Source: a virus
Lineage: Duplodnaviria; Caudoviricetes
DNA length: 64,000 nt
Reading direction: 5' to 3' (one strand)
IMG/VR virus record: IMGVR_UViG_2706795957_000001
Coordinates: 29,578-93,577 of that record
Under the pieces are notes generated by a model. That model was given only the letters and a program-made list of their open reading frames with translations, searched no databases and was not told the DNA's origin. Positions 8,872-23,206 of the stretch are shown one piece after another. Position 1 is the first letter of the stretch. Every line of letters starts with the position of its first letter. A program made the translations under genes and the position numbers.

Positions 8872-10799
8872 CAATCAAGTATTGGAACGGTAGCGCGTTC
8901 GTTGATCCGTCTCAGGTTCGTTACTGGGATGGGTCGGCGTTTGTTGCGCCGCAAGCGATCTACGAGTGGGTTGCAGATGAGTTCATTAAGCGTTGGCCTG
9001 CGTCGATCACGTATCGAATGAATAAGGTTGGGGAGTCGCACGCTTTCGCCTCGCAGGTTCCGGTTAGGGGTTGGGAGAGTGACGCTACTGAACCGGGGCC
9101 ACTCTTTGACGGTTTGTTGACTGGTAGTGGTGTCACGACGGTTGAGGTTTCTCTGAGCGTGAAGTCGGGGTCAGGCTATAGCGGGTCTGTTTTGGTGAAG
9201 CTGGATGGGGTCACGATCATTACGATTGACGCCTACAACCTGACTTCGTACACGATTAAGACGGGTTCATGGACTGGGGTTGCCACGGAGGGCCAGCAGG
9301 TCACTGTGGAGACTTCTACGGTGCATGGCGTGGGCGTGAATGCTCCGTCGTTTGTGAGGGTCACTTCGGCTGTCCCGCACAAGGTGTCGTGGGCGGACGG
9401 CTTCAATCGCGCCAACACTACATCCAGTGTTGGGTTGGGTGACAATTGGTGGAACTTTAGTAGTTACGGCCTTAGCGAGTATCCCAGCATTAATGGCAAT
9501 CAGGCCACCGGCGCTGGCGGTGCGTCGGTGTCCAACTCGGGCAACGGTGCCGCATGGAAGGAACCCGTACCGGCTGGGGTGGACAACTATTTTGTTGAGG
9601 CTTACATCCCGAGCTTGTCGTCTGGCAGTACAGGGCAGGAGCCGACGGGGTTGCTGGTTCGGGCTAATGAGAGCAGCAACCATTACAACAACACACCCGG
9701 CAGTGAAGCGGTGTTCTTTGCCATGTCAACAGGCAACTGGCGGGTTTACCGGGCGCGCACCGCAGCGAACTCGGGGTCCACGAACCTTCAGACGGGCAGT
9801 ATGTCCAACTCCGCGGGCGGCACGCTTCGGGTAGAGGTTCACGGCGACCTGATGATTGCGAAGTACAAGGATCAGGTCATTACGGCGGCGGATATTACTG
9901 GAATTGGCGAGGGTCGCCAGGTTGGCATCCACACGAACGGCTCCAACGCTAAGCATGATGACTTCGCTTCGGGCCAGTGCGATCCGGTTAGCTTCACGGA
10001 TCGTCAGCGCATTGAGATTACTACCCCGCACACGGTGACGACGGGCACCACTACGGTTCTCGGCTGGACGACTTCGGCGGACGAGGATGCGCTTGTCTCG
10101 GATAATTCCCTGCTGATCGCGAAAAGTAATTCGTCGGCCACGGTGTCATGCTCAATTCAGCTAACTTCGACACAAACGTCGGGAACCACCACGTGGACGC
10201 TCATCATGCTGCGTAACGGAACTGCAGCGATGACCCGAACATTCGCCACTACGGCGGCGGGCCAGTACACGATTGAGGATCTTCGTTACAACGGACCTGT
10301 CGCGGTGGGGGATAGGTTTCATATCACCGCTCTTCGGTCAGGCGGAACCTCGCCTGGTGGGACCGTGACAACGGGAACAACACTCCGCACGTCGGAGATG
10401 CTGCCCCCGTTGCGGCAGAGGATGACCAAGAGCGGTACTGCGAGCACGCTTCAAAACCCGGTTACGGGTTGGACCTCCTCTAATGCCGACGCGCCAAGTT
10501 GGATCGACACCAACAAGCTGCGAGTGCAGGGGCGTGGGGCTGCCGAGATCTACTGGCAAGTAGATATTGGACAACGGTCCAGCGCTCAGGGACGCACCCA
10601 GCAGCTCTGGCACAATGGCACGCTTATTGACGAGTTCATCCCAGACCCGAGCGTGAATATGGTCTACCAGCGTGGCCCATTCCAGGTCGCGGTGGAGAAC
10701 GATGACCTGGTCTACATGGCAACGACTGGAACCAGCGTCTCGGGCGGCGGCGTGGTCAATGCGACCACCACCTTCATTGAGGTGGGCCCCCGATCTTAA
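8868..10799 (+). CDS. Tail-associated / receptor-binding protein
   Basis: ATGA overlap; Ser/Thr/Gly-rich beta domains (WADGFNRAN); T-rich third codon positions. Confidence 0.7.
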   Translation: MTIKYWNGSAFVDPSQVRYWDGSAFVAPQAIYEWVADEFIKRWPASITYRMNKVGESHAFASQVPVRGWESDATEPGPLFDGLLTGSGVTTVEVSLSVKSGSGYSGSVLVKLDGVTIITIDAYNLTSYTIKTGSWTGVATEGQQVTVETSTVHGVGVNAPSFVRVTSAVPHKVSWADGFNRANTTSSVGLGDNWWNFSSYGLSEYPSINGNQATGAGGASVSNSGNGAAWKEPVPAGVDNYFVEAYIPSLSSGSTGQEPTGLLVRANESSNHYNNTPGSEAVFFAMSTGNWRVYRARTAANSGSTNLQTGSMSNSAGGTLRVEVHGDLMIAKYKDQVITAADITGIGEGRQVGIHTNGSNAKHDDFASGQCDPVSFTDRQRIEITTPHTVTTGTTTVLGWTTSADEDALVSDNSLLIAKSNSSATVSCSIQLTSTQTSGTTTWTLIMLRNGTAAMTRTFATTAAGQYTIEDLRYNGPVAVGDRFHITALRSGGTSPGGTVTTGTTLRTSEMLPPLRQRMTKSGTASTLQNPVTGWTSSNADAPSWIDTNKLRVQGRGAAEIYWQVDIGQRSSAQGRTQQLWHNGTLIDEFIPDPSVNMVYQRGPFQVAVENDDLVYMATTGTSVSGGGVVNATTTFIEVGPRS

Positions 10800-11140
10800 G
10801 CGTTGGCCGCTTCGAATGCCTCGATGACATCTTCGGGCACCTTGCCGCGGTCTGACACGTCGTAGCCTTCACCCCTGGCCCATTCACGAATCTGCTTGAG
10901 CTGTTCGCGCCGGCCTAGTGCAGAGGCGGCGATCCTGGTCGACCGCTTTCGCCCTCCGACCCGGTTTGCGTGTTCGATCCACTTCTCGAGCGCCTTCTCG
11001 AACTTCATGACGTTCGATGTGCGTAGGTCGATGACATAGTCGACGCCCCGGAAGGAGAACGGGACCGCGTTTGCGTCCCCGTCGTCGATGGGTCGTCCGT
11101 CGAGGTCGTCAAGTACCGATACGTGTGTTACGCGTGCCAT
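10796..11140 (-). CDS. lsr2: Lsr2-like nucleoid-associated protein
   Basis: VLDDLDG...F.FRGVDYVIDL...IREWARGEGYDVSDRGKVPEDVIEAF. Confidence 0.93.
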   Translation of the reverse strand: MARVTHVSVLDDLDGRPIDDGDANAVPFSFRGVDYVIDLRTSNVMKFEKALEKWIEHANRVGGRKRSTRIAASALGRREQLKQIREWARGEGYDVSDRGKVPEDVIEAFEAANA

Positions 11141-11156: not shown

Positions 11157-11648
11157 CTAGGTCTTGACTAGCATCTTCAGGTAGTCATTCGTGTTCTCAA
11201 TTGCCGTGGTAGCAACCCAGTTGCAGTTGCCTTGACCAGCGACGTGTTCGATTCTGTAGGGCCCAGTGTTCCACTCTTTGGTGCCGCACTTGTCCCAGAA
11301 CTCAACCCACGCTCCCCAGGCCCGCAGTCCCGCCGGATCCGCTAAAGGGTTGGTAGGAAGTGACTCCAGCCGTTTGTCGAGTCGCTGGAATTTGTCGATC
11401 ATCCATCGTGCTGTCATGTAGCAGTCCTGGATGCCGGCTTCGCAAACTCCCTCGTCGAGTTTGTCTTGAATCGCCTCGCATGTGGTTCCGCAGTCGGCGA
11501 TGTAGGTCGGTGTCTGTGTATCCGACGCCTCGGTCGTGTGTAGCACATAGTCAGCAAGCCGGTACAAGCCACCCCCGAGTGCTGCCACCAGCGCCAGCGA
11601 CGCGAGCACTGTGATGGCCTTCGTAGGCATTCCGACCCGTCTATCCAT
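11157..11648 (-). CDS. Membrane-anchored Cys-rich exported protein (probably leaderless)
   Basis: N-terminal TM and paired cysteines; ATG 7 nt downstream of a -10 box. Confidence 0.65.
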   Translation of the reverse strand: MDRRVGMPTKAITVLASLALVAALGGGLYRLADYVLHTTEASDTQTPTYIADCGTTCEAIQDKLDEGVCEAGIQDCYMTARWMIDKFQRLDKRLESLPTNPLADPAGLRAWGAWVEFWDKCGTKEWNTGPYRIEHVAGQGNCNWVATTAIENTNDYLKMLVKT

Positions 11649-11655
11649 GCAGCGC

Positions 11656-11685
11656 ATGTTATCAGCATCACACATTGTTAGGCAA
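11656..11685 (-). promoter_or_regulatory. SigA-type promoter TTGCCT-N18-TAACAT
   Basis: Spacing and position upstream of ATG 11648. Confidence 0.55.
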
Positions 11686-11692
11686 CATAACA

Positions 11693-11737
11693 ACTGAACC
11701 CCACACTCTTCGCTGAGTGTGGGGTTCAGTCCTTTTC
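11693..11737. terminator. Intrinsic terminator, likely bidirectional
   Basis: 16-bp perfect stem ACTGAACCCCACACTC/GAGTGTGGGGTTCAGT with T-rich flanks. Confidence 0.8.
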
Positions 11738-11812
11738 TGGTGGCGCGGGCGTCAAATCGTGGGCTCCAATCTCTGTCCCCCGCGGGCGATCCATATTCAG
11801 TTGTGTTTCCCA

Positions 11813-11905
11813 TCACCAGGATGGTGGCTCTCGTGCTCTCATCTTCCCCCCTTTGGCCTCGGTGCTTTCATTTCCTTATCATGCTGGTGGCTCTCTGGCC
11901 CTCAT
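11813..11905 (-). CDS. Minigene array: MRAREPPA (11905-11879), MKAPRPKGGR (11871-11839), MRAREPPSW (11842-11813)
   Basis: Purine-rich SD before each; ATGA overlap; only synonymous differences between the two MRAREPP copies. Confidence 0.6.
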
Positions 11906-11948
11906 CTCACACCCCTTCCGACCTGCTGCTTTCTAACTGATGCTCTCG

Positions 11949-11977
11949 ACTATAGACAGATGCTGTGCCCAGGTCAA
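11949..11977 (-). promoter_or_regulatory. SigA-type promoter TTGACC-N17-TATAGT driving the minigene transcript
   Basis: Near-consensus hexamers; a TAGACA motif abuts the -10. Confidence 0.75.
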
Positions 11978-12103
11978 CAGTTGAGTGGGTGTGGGCTAGC
12001 GCACTCTGCGTCGGTAGGTTCTGGTACGGTGCTATCTAGCCGTAGTGCTGGAGACTAGACAGGAGATGAATTCCTTTGAATTCCAAGCCATCTGGGGTGA
12101 CCC

Positions 12104-19140: not shown

Positions 19141-19143
19141 CTG

Positions 19144-19218
19144 TGCCCTGGGTGGGGCTCGAACCCACGCATCTTCCGATTATGAGTCGGAGGCCTTCAC
19201 CAACTTGGCTACCAGGGC
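19144..19218 (-). tRNA. tRNA with CAU anticodon (Ile2 or Met); CCA not encoded
   Basis: GCCCTGG/CCAGGGC acceptor stem; TCCGA-CTCATAA-TCGGA anticodon arm; GTGGG-TTCGAGC-CCCAC T arm; GA-CTCATAA-TC context resembles Ile2. Confidence 0.93.
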
Positions 19219-22165: not shown

Positions 22166-23199
22166 CAACCCCCTACGACCTCCTCGAGACCGGCGCCATC
22201 ATCAATGGACGCGCGCAAGTCATCGGCAAGTTCGCGAACGGATCACCCGAGTGGCACGCCGCGCGCCGCGGGCATGTCGGCGGGTCCGAGATCTCCGCGA
22301 TCGTCGGCCTAAGCCCATTCGAGTCACGGTTCTCCCTCTGGCACCGCAAGAAGGGTGAACTCGAGGACGTCGAGGAGACCCCAGCCATGGAGTGGGGCAC
22401 CCGCCTCGAGCCAGTCGTCTACGACAAGTACGCCGAGGGTCTCGAAGAGGGTGAGTTCATCACCACCGGCCACACCTTCCGATGCCTGATCCCGGGGCGC
22501 GGCTGGATCAATGCCAACCCCGACGGCATCGTCTGGGCGCAAACCGAAACCGGCGAGTGGTACATCCGTCGCATCCTCGAGATCAAGACCTCGGCCCGCG
22601 GCGAAGGCTACGGAGAGAACGGCAGCGACGGCATCCCGATCTACTACCGATGCCAAGTGCTGTTCTACATGTACTGCCTCGGCGTCAAGCAGGCCGAGCT
22701 GGCCGCGCTGATCTCCGGTGTCGACTACCGCACCTACAAGGTCAACTACAGCACTGAAGACGTCGAGTTCCTCATGAACGCCGGCGACAAGTTCATGCAC
22801 GACCTGAACAACAACGTCCTGCCCGACATCAGCAAGGATAGTACTACCTACGAGGCTGTCCGGCAGATCAACCCCGAGTTGGACCCGGACCTCGAAGTCG
22901 TCATCCCCACCGCACTGGGGGAGTACTACCGATCGATCGAGGAGGCCTACCGCGAGATCAAGGACCTGCGCTACGGCGTCCACGCAGACATTCTCGACCA
23001 CGTCGGGTCCGCGCGCCTGATCAAGCTCGAGGACGGCGAGGTCCTGGCCCGCCGGCAGATGCCTGGCCGTGGCGACAAGCCATACCTGCGCTACGTGCCG
23101 CCCAAGAAGGCCGAGCAGGTGAGCGTCACGGACGCCTACGAGAAGGAGCAGGACCGGCAGGAACGCCTGGCCGCGATGTACGCGCCCGCATCTGTCTAG
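22162..23199 (+). CDS. YqaJ/RecE-like exonuclease
   Basis: EW...RR..VGGSEI, WGTRLEP, ANPDG, LEIKT, Y..QV..YM. Confidence 0.92.
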   Translation: MTTPYDLLETGAIINGRAQVIGKFANGSPEWHAARRGHVGGSEISAIVGLSPFESRFSLWHRKKGELEDVEETPAMEWGTRLEPVVYDKYAEGLEEGEFITTGHTFRCLIPGRGWINANPDGIVWAQTETGEWYIRRILEIKTSARGEGYGENGSDGIPIYYRCQVLFYMYCLGVKQAELAALISGVDYRTYKVNYSTEDVEFLMNAGDKFMHDLNNNVLPDISKDSTTYEAVRQINPELDPDLEVVIPTALGEYYRSIEEAYREIKDLRYGVHADILDHVGSARLIKLEDGEVLARRQMPGRGDKPYLRYVPPKKAEQVSVTDAYEKEQDRQERLAAMYAPASV

Positions 23200-23206
23200 T
23201 CTCTAG

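What the first reader, a model, noticed from the sequence alone, without database searches (positions are those of the whole stretch)
11693..11977. Dedicated transcript of coupled minigenes encoding repeated MRAREPP peptides
Seen: between a leftward promoter (TTGACC-N17-TATAGT) and a 16-bp hairpin lie tiny ORFs: MRAREPPA* (11905-11879, double stop TGA TAA), MKAPRPKGGR* (11871-11839), MRAREPPSW* (11842-11813, ATGA overlap) and possibly MDRPRG...PAPPEKD* (11794-11726). The first three each have a purine-rich SD. The two MRAREPP copies differ at three positions, all synonymous (AGG GCC AGA versus AGA GCA CGA), which suggests selection on the peptide. They use AGA/AGG/CGA and CCA-CCA codons, rare in this genome. 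Established: RAPP/RAGP-type motifs arrest ribosomes, XPP motifs depend on EF-P, and lambda bar minigenes sequester tRNA as peptidyl-tRNA. Inference: a micropeptide system that stalls ribosomes, sequesters tRNA-Arg/Pro, senses translation to attenuate the downstream membrane-protein/lsr2 genes, or inhibits a host target.
Basis: partly seen in the sequence, partly recalled or inferred. Interest (0 to 1): 0.85.

Follow-up and report, generated by a model that had tools for sequence, protein, structure and literature searches.

The report
Ribosome-stalling mini-genes before phage lsr2
A temperate Gordonia phage carries, between a strong promoter and a terminator hairpin in front of its membrane-protein and Lsr2 genes, two or three tiny genes that spell a known ribosome-stalling motif (Arg-x-Pro-Pro); related phages keep them, so they probably form an undescribed switch that senses translation.

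Summary

Two mini-ORFs (MRAREPPA, MRAREPPSW) are a 63-nt tandem duplication that includes the leader and the Shine-Dalgarno site. MKAPRPKGGR is incidental: its ATG is missing in BrutonGaster. The real last unit is a 9-codon ORF (MTPAPPEKD). Its Pro-Pro lies 13 nt before the hairpin.

The core M-x-A-R-(E/D)-P-P recurs, unannotated, in BrutonGaster and about 14 Smoothievirus phages. As RGPP, RSPP or RDPP arrays it also recurs in Mollymur and Bantamvirus phages, always upstream of lsr2.

Substitutions in the core are 11 synonymous to 6 non-synonymous in the ORF frame, against 1:14 and 2:13 in the other two forward frames (P about 6e-4). Arg uses five codons and Ala four. Pro-Pro is always CCA-CCA.

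This is the published RxPP arrest motif, but at the extreme N-terminus of 8-9-codon ORFs. Best reading: parked ribosomes control the hairpin and so read-through into the membrane-protein/lsr2 genes. Stalling and regulation are inferred, not shown; no expression data could be obtained.

This scan had already found the same design in other Gordonia phage genomes. I re-tested that here.

Verdict: a new variant of a known kind.

The parts
11949..11977 (-). Sigma-A/sigma-70-type promoter TTGACC-N17-TATAGT. The transcript probably starts near 11942.
   Evidence: 10 of 12 matches. Both hexamers are kept in BrutonGaster. Smoothievirus phages have TTGACG-N18-TAAACT at the same place. The start site is inferred.
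11906..11942 (-). Purine-rich, unstructured 5' leader with SD GGAAGGGG (11919-11912) and the conserved block CAGTTAGAAAG.
   Evidence: The fold shows no stable structure here.
11876..11905 (-). Module 1: mini-ORF MRAREPPA, stops TGA TAA. REPP = RxPP motif; CCA-CCA at 11890-11885.
   Evidence: Kept as MKAREPPA* in BrutonGaster and as MKAREPPS... in CQ1 phages.
11839..11871 (-). Incidental ORF MKAPRPKGGR inside the duplicated leader. Not part of the system.
   Evidence: Its ATG is ACG in BrutonGaster. It lies within repeat D2.
11813..11853 (-). Module 2: SD AAAGGGGGGAAG plus mini-ORF MRAREPPSW* (11842-11813). CCA-CCA at 11827-11822, 63 nt after module 1 and in the same frame.
   Evidence: BrutonGaster has MQARDPPSR* with SD AAGGAGG.
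11817..11933 (-). Tandem duplication with a 63-64-nt period. Each unit holds leader piece, SD, start and R-E-P-P core.
   Evidence: D1 11817-11854 / 11880-11917 (76% identity); D2 11848-11869 / 11912-11933 (73% identity).
11726..11767 (-). Terminal module: SD GGAG (11767-11764), TTG 11755, MTPAPPEKD*, stop TGA 11728-11726 inside the hairpin foot. CCA-CCA at 11743-11738. The first CCA lies 13 nt before the stem.
Evidence: This stretch is nearly identical in BrutonGaster. Counterparts MEEPPG* (Mollymur) and MQEEPP* (Bantamvirus) abut their hairpins.
11683..11730 (-). Terminator-like hairpin: arms 11730-11715 and 11708-11693, 16 bp, -30.5 kcal/mol, followed by a U-rich tail (UGUUAUGUUG).
   Evidence: Each of the four genera has a strong hairpin of different sequence at this place.
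11157..11657 (-). Downstream gene 1: membrane protein of unknown function (phrog_13269), with no SD. It may have its own weak promoter (TTGCCT-N18-TAACAT) and a leaderless start at ATG 11647.
   Evidence: The promoter and leaderless reading are my inference; the scan did not report this site.
10796..11140 (-). Downstream gene 2: Lsr2-like nucleoid-associated protein, the gene common to all loci that carry the array.
   Evidence: Pfam PF11774 and PF23359.

Best explanation
The stretch is a translated leader, or short transcript, in front of the phage's membrane-protein/lsr2 cassette.

How it would work:
- A host-type promoter drives a purine-rich, unstructured RNA.
- The RNA carries two SD-led mini-ORFs whose only selected content is M-x-A-R-(E/D)-P-P. 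This is an RxPP ribosome-arrest motif with invariant CCA-CCA codons.
- A third SD-led mini-ORF, MTPAPPEKD, has its Pro-Pro 13 nt before a -30 kcal/mol terminator hairpin.
- Each module loads one ribosome. After about six codons it stalls, with ...R-x-Pro-tRNA in the P site and Pro-tRNA in the A site.
- The parked ribosomes, above all the one at the foot of the hairpin, decide whether the hairpin forms. That sets whether transcription and translation continue into the membrane-protein and lsr2 genes.
- Expression of the phage's Lsr2 silencer would then follow the host's capacity to resolve Pro-Pro stalls (EF-P, ABCF factors, tRNA-Pro(UGG), proline).

Shown: the anatomy, its conservation, selection at the peptide level, and identity with a published arrest motif.

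Inferred: translation itself, the stall, and any effect on the hairpin or on lsr2.
For: 1. Anatomy confirmed.

2. Conservation where the flanks are barely alignable. The neighbouring membrane protein is 33-36% identical between Oneupvirus and Smoothievirus. Even so, all 9 distinct copies keep an SD, an ATG and the core. The core reads M-(K/R/Q)-A-R-(E/D)-P-P-(S/A) in 8 of them; Miskis has Ser for the second Pro.

3. Coding selection. Parsimony over codons 2-8 gives 11 synonymous to 6 non-synonymous changes in the ORF frame. The other forward frames give 1:14 and 2:13, and the reverse frames 3:14, 7:8 and 2:13. Random placement gives P = 6e-4.

4. Wider family, checked here. Mollymur has RGPP, RSPP, RGPP and RDPP modules plus EEPPG*. 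SpeedDemon, Bantam and DatBoi have RGPP, RDPP, RDPP plus MQEEPP*. Each module has an SD and a start, and each array ends at a hairpin upstream of lsr2. Across the family Arg uses CGA, CGC, CGG, AGA and AGG. Ala uses all four codons.

5. Conservation stops right after the second Pro. ORFs end at codon 9, 10, 15 or 25, and the codons just downstream are hypervariable. That is expected if the A-site Pro is the last residue that matters.

6. Match to published data:
- Arg of RxPP is irreplaceable.
- x = G is fully permissive for arrest; S, D and E are partly permissive.
- Actinomycete (S. lividans) ribosomes arrest on RAPP/RGPP (PMC12992588).
- A minimal RxPP motif suffices (PMC10951233).
- DP(P), GP(P), SP(P) and AP(P) are the strongest XP(P) pauses, measured within 47 nt of the start codon, so on short chains (PMC6238534).

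7. Geometry of the last Pro-Pro. The first nt of CCACCA lies 13 nt (window), 14 nt (BrutonGaster) and 9 nt (Mollymur) before the stem, and about 11 nt in SpeedDemon by hand count.

8. Precedent. Polyproline stalls uncouple translation from transcription and let intrinsic terminators act (PMC5021804).

9. The array is absent from eight other lsr2 loci used as controls.
Against: - There is no expression, ribosome or termination data.
- Only three residues precede the Arg. Published RAPP peptides need an N-terminal adjacent region for full arrest. E and D at x give only partial arrest in ApdA and ApdP.
- Miskis carries E-P-S-S, with the second Pro lost. DatBoi has Thr for Ala in one module.
- Smoothievirus phages have one module and no terminal Pro-Pro. 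Their Pro-Pro is 75-83 nt from the hairpin, so the 'ribosome at the hairpin foot' step cannot be universal.
- No alternative antiterminator fold is predicted. Only the hairpin is stable.
- The membrane-protein gene has no SD and may have its own promoter and a leaderless start. The array RNA might then be a separate transcript.
- In window and BrutonGaster the hairpin could also end rightward late transcription, since a U-tract CCUUUUCU follows it on the + strand.
- The invariance of CCA-CCA (P about 0.008 for no synonymous change) is not explained by peptide selection. It leaves room for an RNA- or tRNA-specific constraint.
Confidence: 0.5

Rival explanations
1. Stand-alone decoy RNA. The promoter-to-terminator unit is an independent, abundant short transcript. 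Its stalled or aborted translation acts in trans, by tying up ribosomes, EF-P or tRNA-Pro(UGG) as peptidyl-tRNA, like lambda bar minigenes. It would not control the genes downstream.
For: - The unit has its own strong promoter and a strong hairpin with a U-rich tail.
- The next gene lacks an SD and may have its own -35/-10 with a leaderless start (my reading).
- CCA-CCA is invariant beyond what the amino acids require, which points to one tRNA isoacceptor.
- The module is duplicated 2-5 times, consistent with a dosage effect.
Against: - The array is always co-oriented with lsr2 and directly upstream of it, in four genera. In Mollymur and Bantamvirus lsr2 follows with its own SD, and I saw no obvious promoter in between.
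- The phage itself uses CCA for about 19% of its Pro codons, so starving that tRNA would hurt the phage.
- There is no conserved last sense codon as in bar minigenes.
- Rare Arg codons are not conserved.
Confidence: 0.17
2. Free micropeptide. The 8-9-residue products (core MKAREPPS/A) are released and act on a host or phage target. The ribosome is only the factory.
For: - Selection at the peptide level.
- Position 8 is only Ser or Ala.
- Position 9 is Arg through the unrelated codons AGA and CGG in several copies.
- Gene dosage is raised by duplication.
Against: - Product length is unconstrained (8, 9, 14 or 24 residues, or fused into a 95-residue frame in Mollymur).
- Position x varies among E, D, S and G, and position 2 among K, R, Q, N and G. 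That fits arrest rules better than a binding epitope.
- It does not explain the fixed CCA codons or the hairpin geometry.
Confidence: 0.1
3. Non-coding element. The repeated GA(G/C)CCACCA boxes, 57-89 bp apart, are protein-binding sites on DNA (operators or iterons) or RNA motifs of an sRNA, and the ORFs are incidental.
For: - GAGCCACCA is constant at the nucleotide level in nearly all copies.
- Spacings of 63 and 84 bp are whole numbers of helical turns.
- The region also holds conserved palindromes TGTCTA-N17-TAGA(C/A)A.
Against: - The excess of synonymous changes is specific to one frame.
- Every box has an SD and a start codon at a fixed distance, in four genera.
- Arg is kept through CGN-to-AGR switches.
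- There is no Rfam or tRNA-like hit and no conserved fold besides the hairpin.
Confidence: 0.06
4. Ordinary coding sequence. Either the plus-strand gene annotated in BrutonGaster (gp51, 76 aa) and Bantam (gp43), or the N-terminal extension of the membrane protein (ORF 11816-11157).
For: - GenBank annotations exist on the opposite strand.
- In the window the GTG at 11816 is open in frame into the membrane-protein gene.
Against: - The plus-strand frame of BrutonGaster gp51 is split over two frames in the window. It shows 3 synonymous to 14 non-synonymous changes and carries a stop in the CQ1 state.
- The 11816 extension is closed by a stop at the hairpin in BrutonGaster.
- Both readings would run through a 16-bp terminator hairpin.
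Confidence: 0.03

Closest known systems
RAPP-like (RxPP) ribosome arrest peptides: ApdA, ApdP, ApcA, SecM (RAGP), CruR and the Streptomyces lividans RAPP/RGPP upstream ORFs (PMC7897499, PMC10951233, PMC12992588)
   Same: - Core Arg-x-Pro-Pro with an invariant Arg.
- x drawn from the residues that allow arrest (G, S, D, E).
- Conservation ends at the A-site Pro.
- The motif lies a few codons before the stop.
- It is encoded upstream of, and co-oriented with, the presumably regulated genes.
- The host phylum (Actinomycetota) is known to use such peptides.
   Different: - Known members are proteins of about 100-200 residues. They carry a signal or membrane segment whose pulling force releases the arrest, and a tunnel-filling region next to the motif.
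- Here the whole ORF is 8-9 codons, with three residues before the Arg. No force sensor is possible.
- The unit is repeated 1-5 times, each with its own SD.
- It sits in a phage.
- It ends at a terminator-like hairpin rather than at a structure that masks an SD.
Proline-codon leader peptides and EF-P-dependent coupling (MgtL/MgtP of Salmonella; polyproline leaders before terminators, PMC5021804, PMC6460261)
   Same: A short leader ORF in which Pro codons slow the ribosome, placed upstream of a transcription stop signal. The output depends on how fast Pro-Pro bonds are made.
   Different: - No alternative stem-loops were found here.
- The motif includes a required Arg, which is the EF-P-refractory class.
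- There are several independently initiated modules.
- The system is phage-borne and tied to lsr2.
Lambda bar minigenes and other toxic minigenes (PMC2490762)
   Same: Phage-borne, SD-led ORFs of a few codons on a non-coding stretch. Short peptidyl-tRNAs are prone to drop off.
   Different: - bar acts through the last sense codon and a poor termination context, and its peptide sequence is not conserved.
- Here the peptide core is under purifying selection and the last codons vary.
- Rare AGA/AGG codons are not conserved in relatives.
Ribosome-blocked terminators and drug-sensing leaders (pyrBI leader; ermC/ermD leaders). Compared from my own knowledge, not checked with a tool here.
   Same: A ribosome standing on a leader ORF next to a hairpin determines whether that hairpin forms. 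The M-(K/R)-A-R start also resembles the +x+ macrolide-stall motif.
   Different: No resistance or pyrimidine gene lies downstream. The +x+ pattern is broken in BrutonGaster (MQAR) and in the MNAR modules. None of this was tested.

Membership tests
RxPP / RAPP-like arrest peptides | Core Arg-x-Pro-Pro with irreplaceable Arg, small or acidic x, and Pro in the P and A sites | tested here: met
   REPP twice in the window. RDPP, RSPP and RGPP in relatives. Arg is kept through five codons. The rule comes from PMC12992588; E and D are only partly permissive there.
RxPP / RAPP-like arrest peptides | N-terminally adjacent region (about 5-12 residues in the tunnel) that supports arrest | tested here: not met
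   Only fMet-(K/R)-Ala precede the Arg. The requirement is described, although a minimal RxPP was reported as sufficient.
RxPP / RAPP-like arrest peptides | Signal peptide or membrane segment that gives force-dependent release (monitoring substrate) | tested here: not met
   The ORFs are 8-9 codons long.
RxPP / RAPP-like arrest peptides | Demonstrated elongation arrest (peptidyl-tRNA accumulation, toeprint with Pro codons in the P and A sites) | not testable with these tools
   Needs toeprinting or Ribo-seq.
RxPP / RAPP-like arrest peptides | Encoded upstream of, and in the same direction as, the regulated gene | tested here: met
   The order is array, hairpin, then membrane protein and lsr2 in the window. 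It is array, hairpin, lsr2 in Mollymur and Bantamvirus.
Classical leader-peptide attenuators (trpL, hisL, MgtL type) | Mutually exclusive terminator and antiterminator structures that overlap the leader ORF | tested here: not met
   Folds of the window, BrutonGaster and Smoothie transcripts show only the terminator as a stable element.
Lambda bar-type toxic minigenes | A very short SD-led ORF whose effect depends on the last sense codon and stop context rather than on the peptide sequence | tested here: not met
   The peptide core is under purifying selection. The last sense codons differ (GCA, TGG, CGG, or later ones). Toxicity itself cannot be tested here.
Known RNA families (Rfam 15), tRNA or tmRNA | A match to a covariance model or a tRNA-like fold | tested here: not met
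   There is no hit over the modules. The only one, frnS at E = 5.3, lies over the hairpin. ARAGORN finds only the tRNA at 19143-19218.

The most novel reading that the evidence does not exclude
A modular line of ribosome-arrest units. It consists of serial, independently loaded RxPP mini-ORFs (refractory to EF-P), followed by a plain xPP unit at the foot of a terminator. Through it, temperate Gordonia phages would read the host's translation capacity (EF-P or ABCF activity, tRNA-Pro(UGG) charging, proline) and set the level of their Lsr2 silencer. That level would in turn bias lytic growth against lysogeny. This would be the first arrest-peptide switch described in a phage, and the smallest RxPP arrest unit known.
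Probability: 0.25. Interest if true: 0.85.

Novelty: new variant of a known kind. Interest (0 to 1): 0.72.

Why it matters
Known arrest peptides of the RAPP class are long bacterial proteins that sense secretion, membrane insertion or metals.

A 7-residue N-terminal version would show how little nascent chain is needed for RxPP arrest. It would also show that the motif can serve as a repeatable part of a larger element.

It would be a cis-regulatory element of a new design in phages. It would tie the expression of a phage-encoded xenogeneic silencer (Lsr2) to the translational state of the host.

It also bears on annotation. The element is unannotated in every relative, and in BrutonGaster and Bantam it is covered by what looks like a spurious gene call on the opposite strand.

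All of this can be tested with ordinary tools in Gordonia terrae or Mycobacterium smegmatis.

Tried and rejected
Searches that found nothing useful:
- Rfam at E up to 10, and ARAGORN: nothing over the modules.
- RNA folds: no conserved structure except the hairpin. A 3-bp GGC/GCC stem inside the ORF is not kept in copy 2.
- Pattern ATGARRGCNMGNGAGCCACCA in 596 Gb of prokaryote genomes: 19 hits, about as many as my rough chance estimate. None is in Mycobacteriales, only one lies in an unclassified Actinomycetota MAG, none has a good SD, and many are embedded in longer frames. So no host counterpart was found.
- The same kind of pattern in IMG/VR: only Cucurbita and BrutonGaster.
- Relatives of the membrane protein in metagenome contigs: none.
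- BLAST with a 50-nt module: CQ1 phages only.

Ideas considered and dropped:
- Sequestration through rare AGA/AGG codons: those codons are not conserved.
- A tRNA 3'-end mimic (GCCACCA): no acceptor-like helix, and ARAGORN is negative.
- A Chi-like site: the reverse complement of CCACCAGC is GCTGGTGG, but in copy 1 only, so a coincidence.
- All modules must share one frame: this holds in the window, Mollymur and Bantamvirus, but the third unit of BrutonGaster is out of frame (spacing 89).
- A second coding ORF in CQ1 phages (33 codons through the hairpin): about 3 synonymous to 8 non-synonymous changes by my hand count, so not coding.

My first reading was a purely stand-alone RNA. I downgraded it after I found the array directly upstream of lsr2 in two more genera.
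Full report
**Where the window comes from.** The window is bases 29578-93577 of a 93,577-bp phage genome. Its only close relative in the phage collection is Gordonia phage BrutonGaster (Oneupvirus), 84% identical over this region. The single tRNA has a CAU anticodon. That matches what a paper on tRNA-dependent lysogeny reports for the subcluster CQ2 phage OneUp (PMC10865867). The phage is therefore temperate and probably OneUp or very near it.

The local gene order, in window coordinates, is:
- minor tail gene (+, to 10799);
- lsr2 (-, 11140-10796; Pfam Lsr2 domains);
- a membrane protein of unknown function (-, 11657-11157; phrog_13269);
- the stretch in question;
- exonuclease VII large subunit (+, from 12104).

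The minus-strand promoter-like site TTGACC-N17-TATAGT (11977-11949) is one of only two in 6 kb. The hairpin 11730-11693 has 16 perfect pairs, -30.5 kcal/mol and a U-rich tail. The two MRAREPP ORFs belong to a 63-nt tandem duplication that also copies the leader and the Shine-Dalgarno site. They are the only such ORFs in the whole genome.

**What is conserved.**
- In BrutonGaster, ORF1 is MKAREPPA* and ORF3 is MQARDPPSR*, each with a strong SD.
- ORF2 loses its start there (ACG), so ORF2 is an accident of the duplicated leader.
An SD (GGAG) and a TTG eight bases further on give a 9-codon ORF, MTPAPPEKD/T*. That stretch is almost identical in the two phages.
- The plus-strand gene annotated in BrutonGaster (gp51) falls into two different frames in the window. 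It shows 3 synonymous to 14 non-synonymous changes. I regard it as a mis-call.
- The GTG at 11816 is open into the membrane-protein gene only in this phage. In BrutonGaster that frame stops at the hairpin.

**A more distant genus keeps the unit.** The Smoothievirus (CQ1) phages share only 33-36% identity in the membrane protein. They have the same layout: promoter TTGACG-N18-TAAACT, SD GAAGGGGGGAGA, one ORF beginning MKAREPPSR, a strong hairpin, then the membrane protein and lsr2. Their ORF runs for 24 codons in most members but 14 in WilliamBoone. Miskis has E-P-S-S. No CQ1 record annotates the ORF.

**Test for coding selection.** I used the nine distinct copies on a simple tree and counted changes in codons 2-8 by parsimony.
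- ORF frame: 11 synonymous, 6 non-synonymous.
- Other forward frames: 1:14 and 2:13.
- Reverse frames: 3:14, 7:8 and 2:13.
- Random placement of 17 changes reaches 11 synonymous with P = 6e-4.

Ala is GCA, GCG or GCC. Arg is CGG, CGA, AGG or AGA. Non-synonymous changes are mostly K/R/Q at position 2 and E/D at position 5. The two Pro codons never change from CCA. The chance of that is about 0.008 given 12 synonymous changes counted by hand. Selection therefore acts on the peptide, and on something more at CCA-CCA.

**A lead from earlier notes of this scan, checked here.** Notes on other genomes described rows of Arg-x-Pro-Pro mini-ORFs before lsr2 in Gordonia phages. I took Lsr2 homologues across the phage collection and read their upstream regions.
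- Mollymur has five SD-led units in one open 95-codon frame: RGPP, RSPP, RGPP, RDPP, then EEPPG*.
- SpeedDemon, Bantam and DatBoi have four: MFNPRGPPA..., MNARDPP... twice, then MQEEPP*.
- In each case the array ends at a strong hairpin, with lsr2 and its own SD 50-110 nt further on.
- In DatBoi the stop between the first two units is lost and they fuse in frame. The codons just after each Pro-Pro are hypervariable.
- Every conserved Pro-Pro is CCA-CCA. A non-conserved H-P-P in SpeedDemon uses CCG-CCC.
- Eight other lsr2 loci have no such unit: Neville, Octobien14, Sephiroth, LeBron, Omega, Faith1, Porcelain and Yappy.

The element thus belongs to a group of about 90-kb Gordonia terrae phages in four genera, and lsr2 is the gene they have in common.

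**Comparison with what is known.** The conserved core is the RxPP arrest motif.
- In ApdA and ApdP the Arg cannot be replaced. Gly at x is fully active.
- In ApdA, Ser, Asp and Pro keep partial arrest. In ApdP, Pro, Asp, Ser and Glu do, so REPP and RDPP were made and measured (PMC12992588).
- RDPP and RSPP are depleted from bacterial proteomes.
- Streptomyces ribosomes arrest on RAPP/RGPP.
- A minimal RxPP was reported as sufficient for arrest, although sequences upstream modulate it (PMC10951233).
- Inverse toeprinting, which reads pauses within 47 nt of the start codon, ranks DP(P), GP(P), SP(P) and AP(P) as the strongest XP(P) pauses (PMC6238534).

The residues seen at x in the phage units (E, D, S, G, and A in the terminal unit) are therefore almost exactly the stall-prone set. 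Conservation that ends at the second Pro is what a stall with Pro-tRNA in the A site predicts.

The differences are large. Only three residues precede the Arg. There is no signal or membrane segment, so no pulling force can release the stall. The unit is repeated, each copy with its own ribosome-binding site. It is in a phage. I found no paper that describes it, but the library held is incomplete.

**How it probably works.** The last unit lacks Arg (APP in the window, EPP elsewhere), so it is a plain pause of the kind EF-P relieves. Its first CCA lies 13 nt (window), 14 nt (BrutonGaster), 9 nt (Mollymur) and about 11 nt (SpeedDemon) before the base of the hairpin. In the window the stop codon lies inside the stem. 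From general knowledge, a ribosome paused there, or terminating slowly after Pro, should cover or open the foot of the stem. That is the part an intrinsic terminator needs. Polyproline stalls are known to uncouple translation from transcription and so to let intrinsic terminators act (PMC5021804).

I therefore read the array as a translation-sensing leader for the membrane-protein/lsr2 genes. The upstream RxPP units would park ribosomes. That could protect the leader or time ribosome traffic. This part is inference only.

**Weak points.**
- CQ1 phages have no terminal unit, and their Pro-Pro is 75-83 nt from the hairpin.
- No antiterminator fold is predicted.
- The membrane-protein gene has no SD. 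It may have its own promoter (TTGCCT-N18-TAACAT in the window, TTGTGG-N17-TAGTAT in CQ1) with a leaderless start seven bases after the -10. That would make the array RNA a separate transcript.
- In the window the hairpin also has a U-tract on the other strand.
- There are no expression data.

**Rivals.**
- A stand-alone decoy or minigene RNA (0.17) would explain the fixed CCA codon. It would not explain the constant link to lsr2.
- A released micropeptide (0.10) fits the selection. It does not fit the free product length or the variation at x.
- A DNA or RNA motif with incidental ORFs (0.06) is contradicted by the frame-specific excess of synonymous changes, and by an SD and a start at every unit.
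- Ordinary coding sequence on either strand (0.03) is contradicted by the comparison with BrutonGaster and CQ1.

**Verdict.** The feature is real, conserved and unannotated. It is best called a new, minimal and repeated variant of the RxPP arrest-peptide principle, used by a group of temperate Gordonia phages in front of lsr2.
- That the units are translated and selected for the stall motif: about 0.7.
- The full model, including control of the hairpin and of lsr2: about 0.5.
- This scan had already noted the same design on other phage genomes. I reproduced that here independently.

Noticed in passing
window 11930-11958 and 12033-12061; L005 about 2050-2080 and 2143-2175: Two inverted repeats, TGTCTA-N17-TAGA(C/A)A. 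One spans the -10 to about +20 of the mini-ORF promoter. The other lies about 100 bp upstream, next to the start of the rightward genes. Both are kept in CQ1 phages although the spacers differ. They look like paired operators for a dimeric DNA-binding protein. Similar one-mismatch sites occur elsewhere (for example 14637, 23193, 39714, 44119, 49791).
   Followed up: partly
window 12051-12062 (-) and 23192-23203 (+): The exact 12-mer CTGTCTAGTCTC occurs twice in the window. The second copy lies directly upstream of the -35 of another strong promoter (TTGACT-N17-TAGGCT). This may be a shared regulatory site.
   Followed up: partly
L001 4138-4368 (BrutonGaster gene 51); L056 483-632 (Bantam gene 43): Both are annotated as hypothetical proteins on the strand opposite the mini-ORF array. 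The BrutonGaster frame is not colinear with the window, shows 3 synonymous to 14 non-synonymous changes, and is probably a spurious call. The Bantam call overlaps the array in the same way but was not tested.
   Followed up: yes
window 11640-11692: The membrane-protein gene has no Shine-Dalgarno site. A weak -35/-10 (TTGCCT-N18-TAACAT) ends seven bases before ATG 11647 (ATGGATAGAC). CQ1 phages have TTGTGG-N17-TAGTAT seven bases before GTGGATAGAC. This suggests a leaderless mRNA with its own promoter just after the hairpin. Annotated starts of this gene disagree among CQ1 records.
   Followed up: partly
window 11816-11157: GTG 11816 and ATG 11813 overlap the stop of MRAREPPSW (GGTGATGG). They are open through the hairpin, in frame, into the membrane-protein gene (219 codons). 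This is specific to this phage, because BrutonGaster has a 5-nt indel and a stop.
   Followed up: yes
L020 (Miskis), L055 (DatBoi), L046 (Mollymur): Natural variants that could serve as ready-made tests. Miskis has E-P-S-S, with the second Pro lost. DatBoi has Thr for Ala in one unit and has lost the stop between units 1 and 2. Mollymur has all five units in one open 95-codon frame.
   Followed up: partly
window 19143-19218: A single tRNA with a CAU anticodon. It matches the published tRNA-dependent lysogeny of CQ2 phages OneUp and BrutonGaster (PMC10865867), so that feature of the genome is already described.
   Followed up: partly
L045, L048, L049 (Neville, Octobien14, Sephiroth): In these Deeyouvirinae phages lsr2 lies downstream of, and co-oriented with, the immunity repressor and a membrane protein. 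This suggests that phage lsr2 can be expressed from the prophage. No RxPP array is present there.
   Followed up: no
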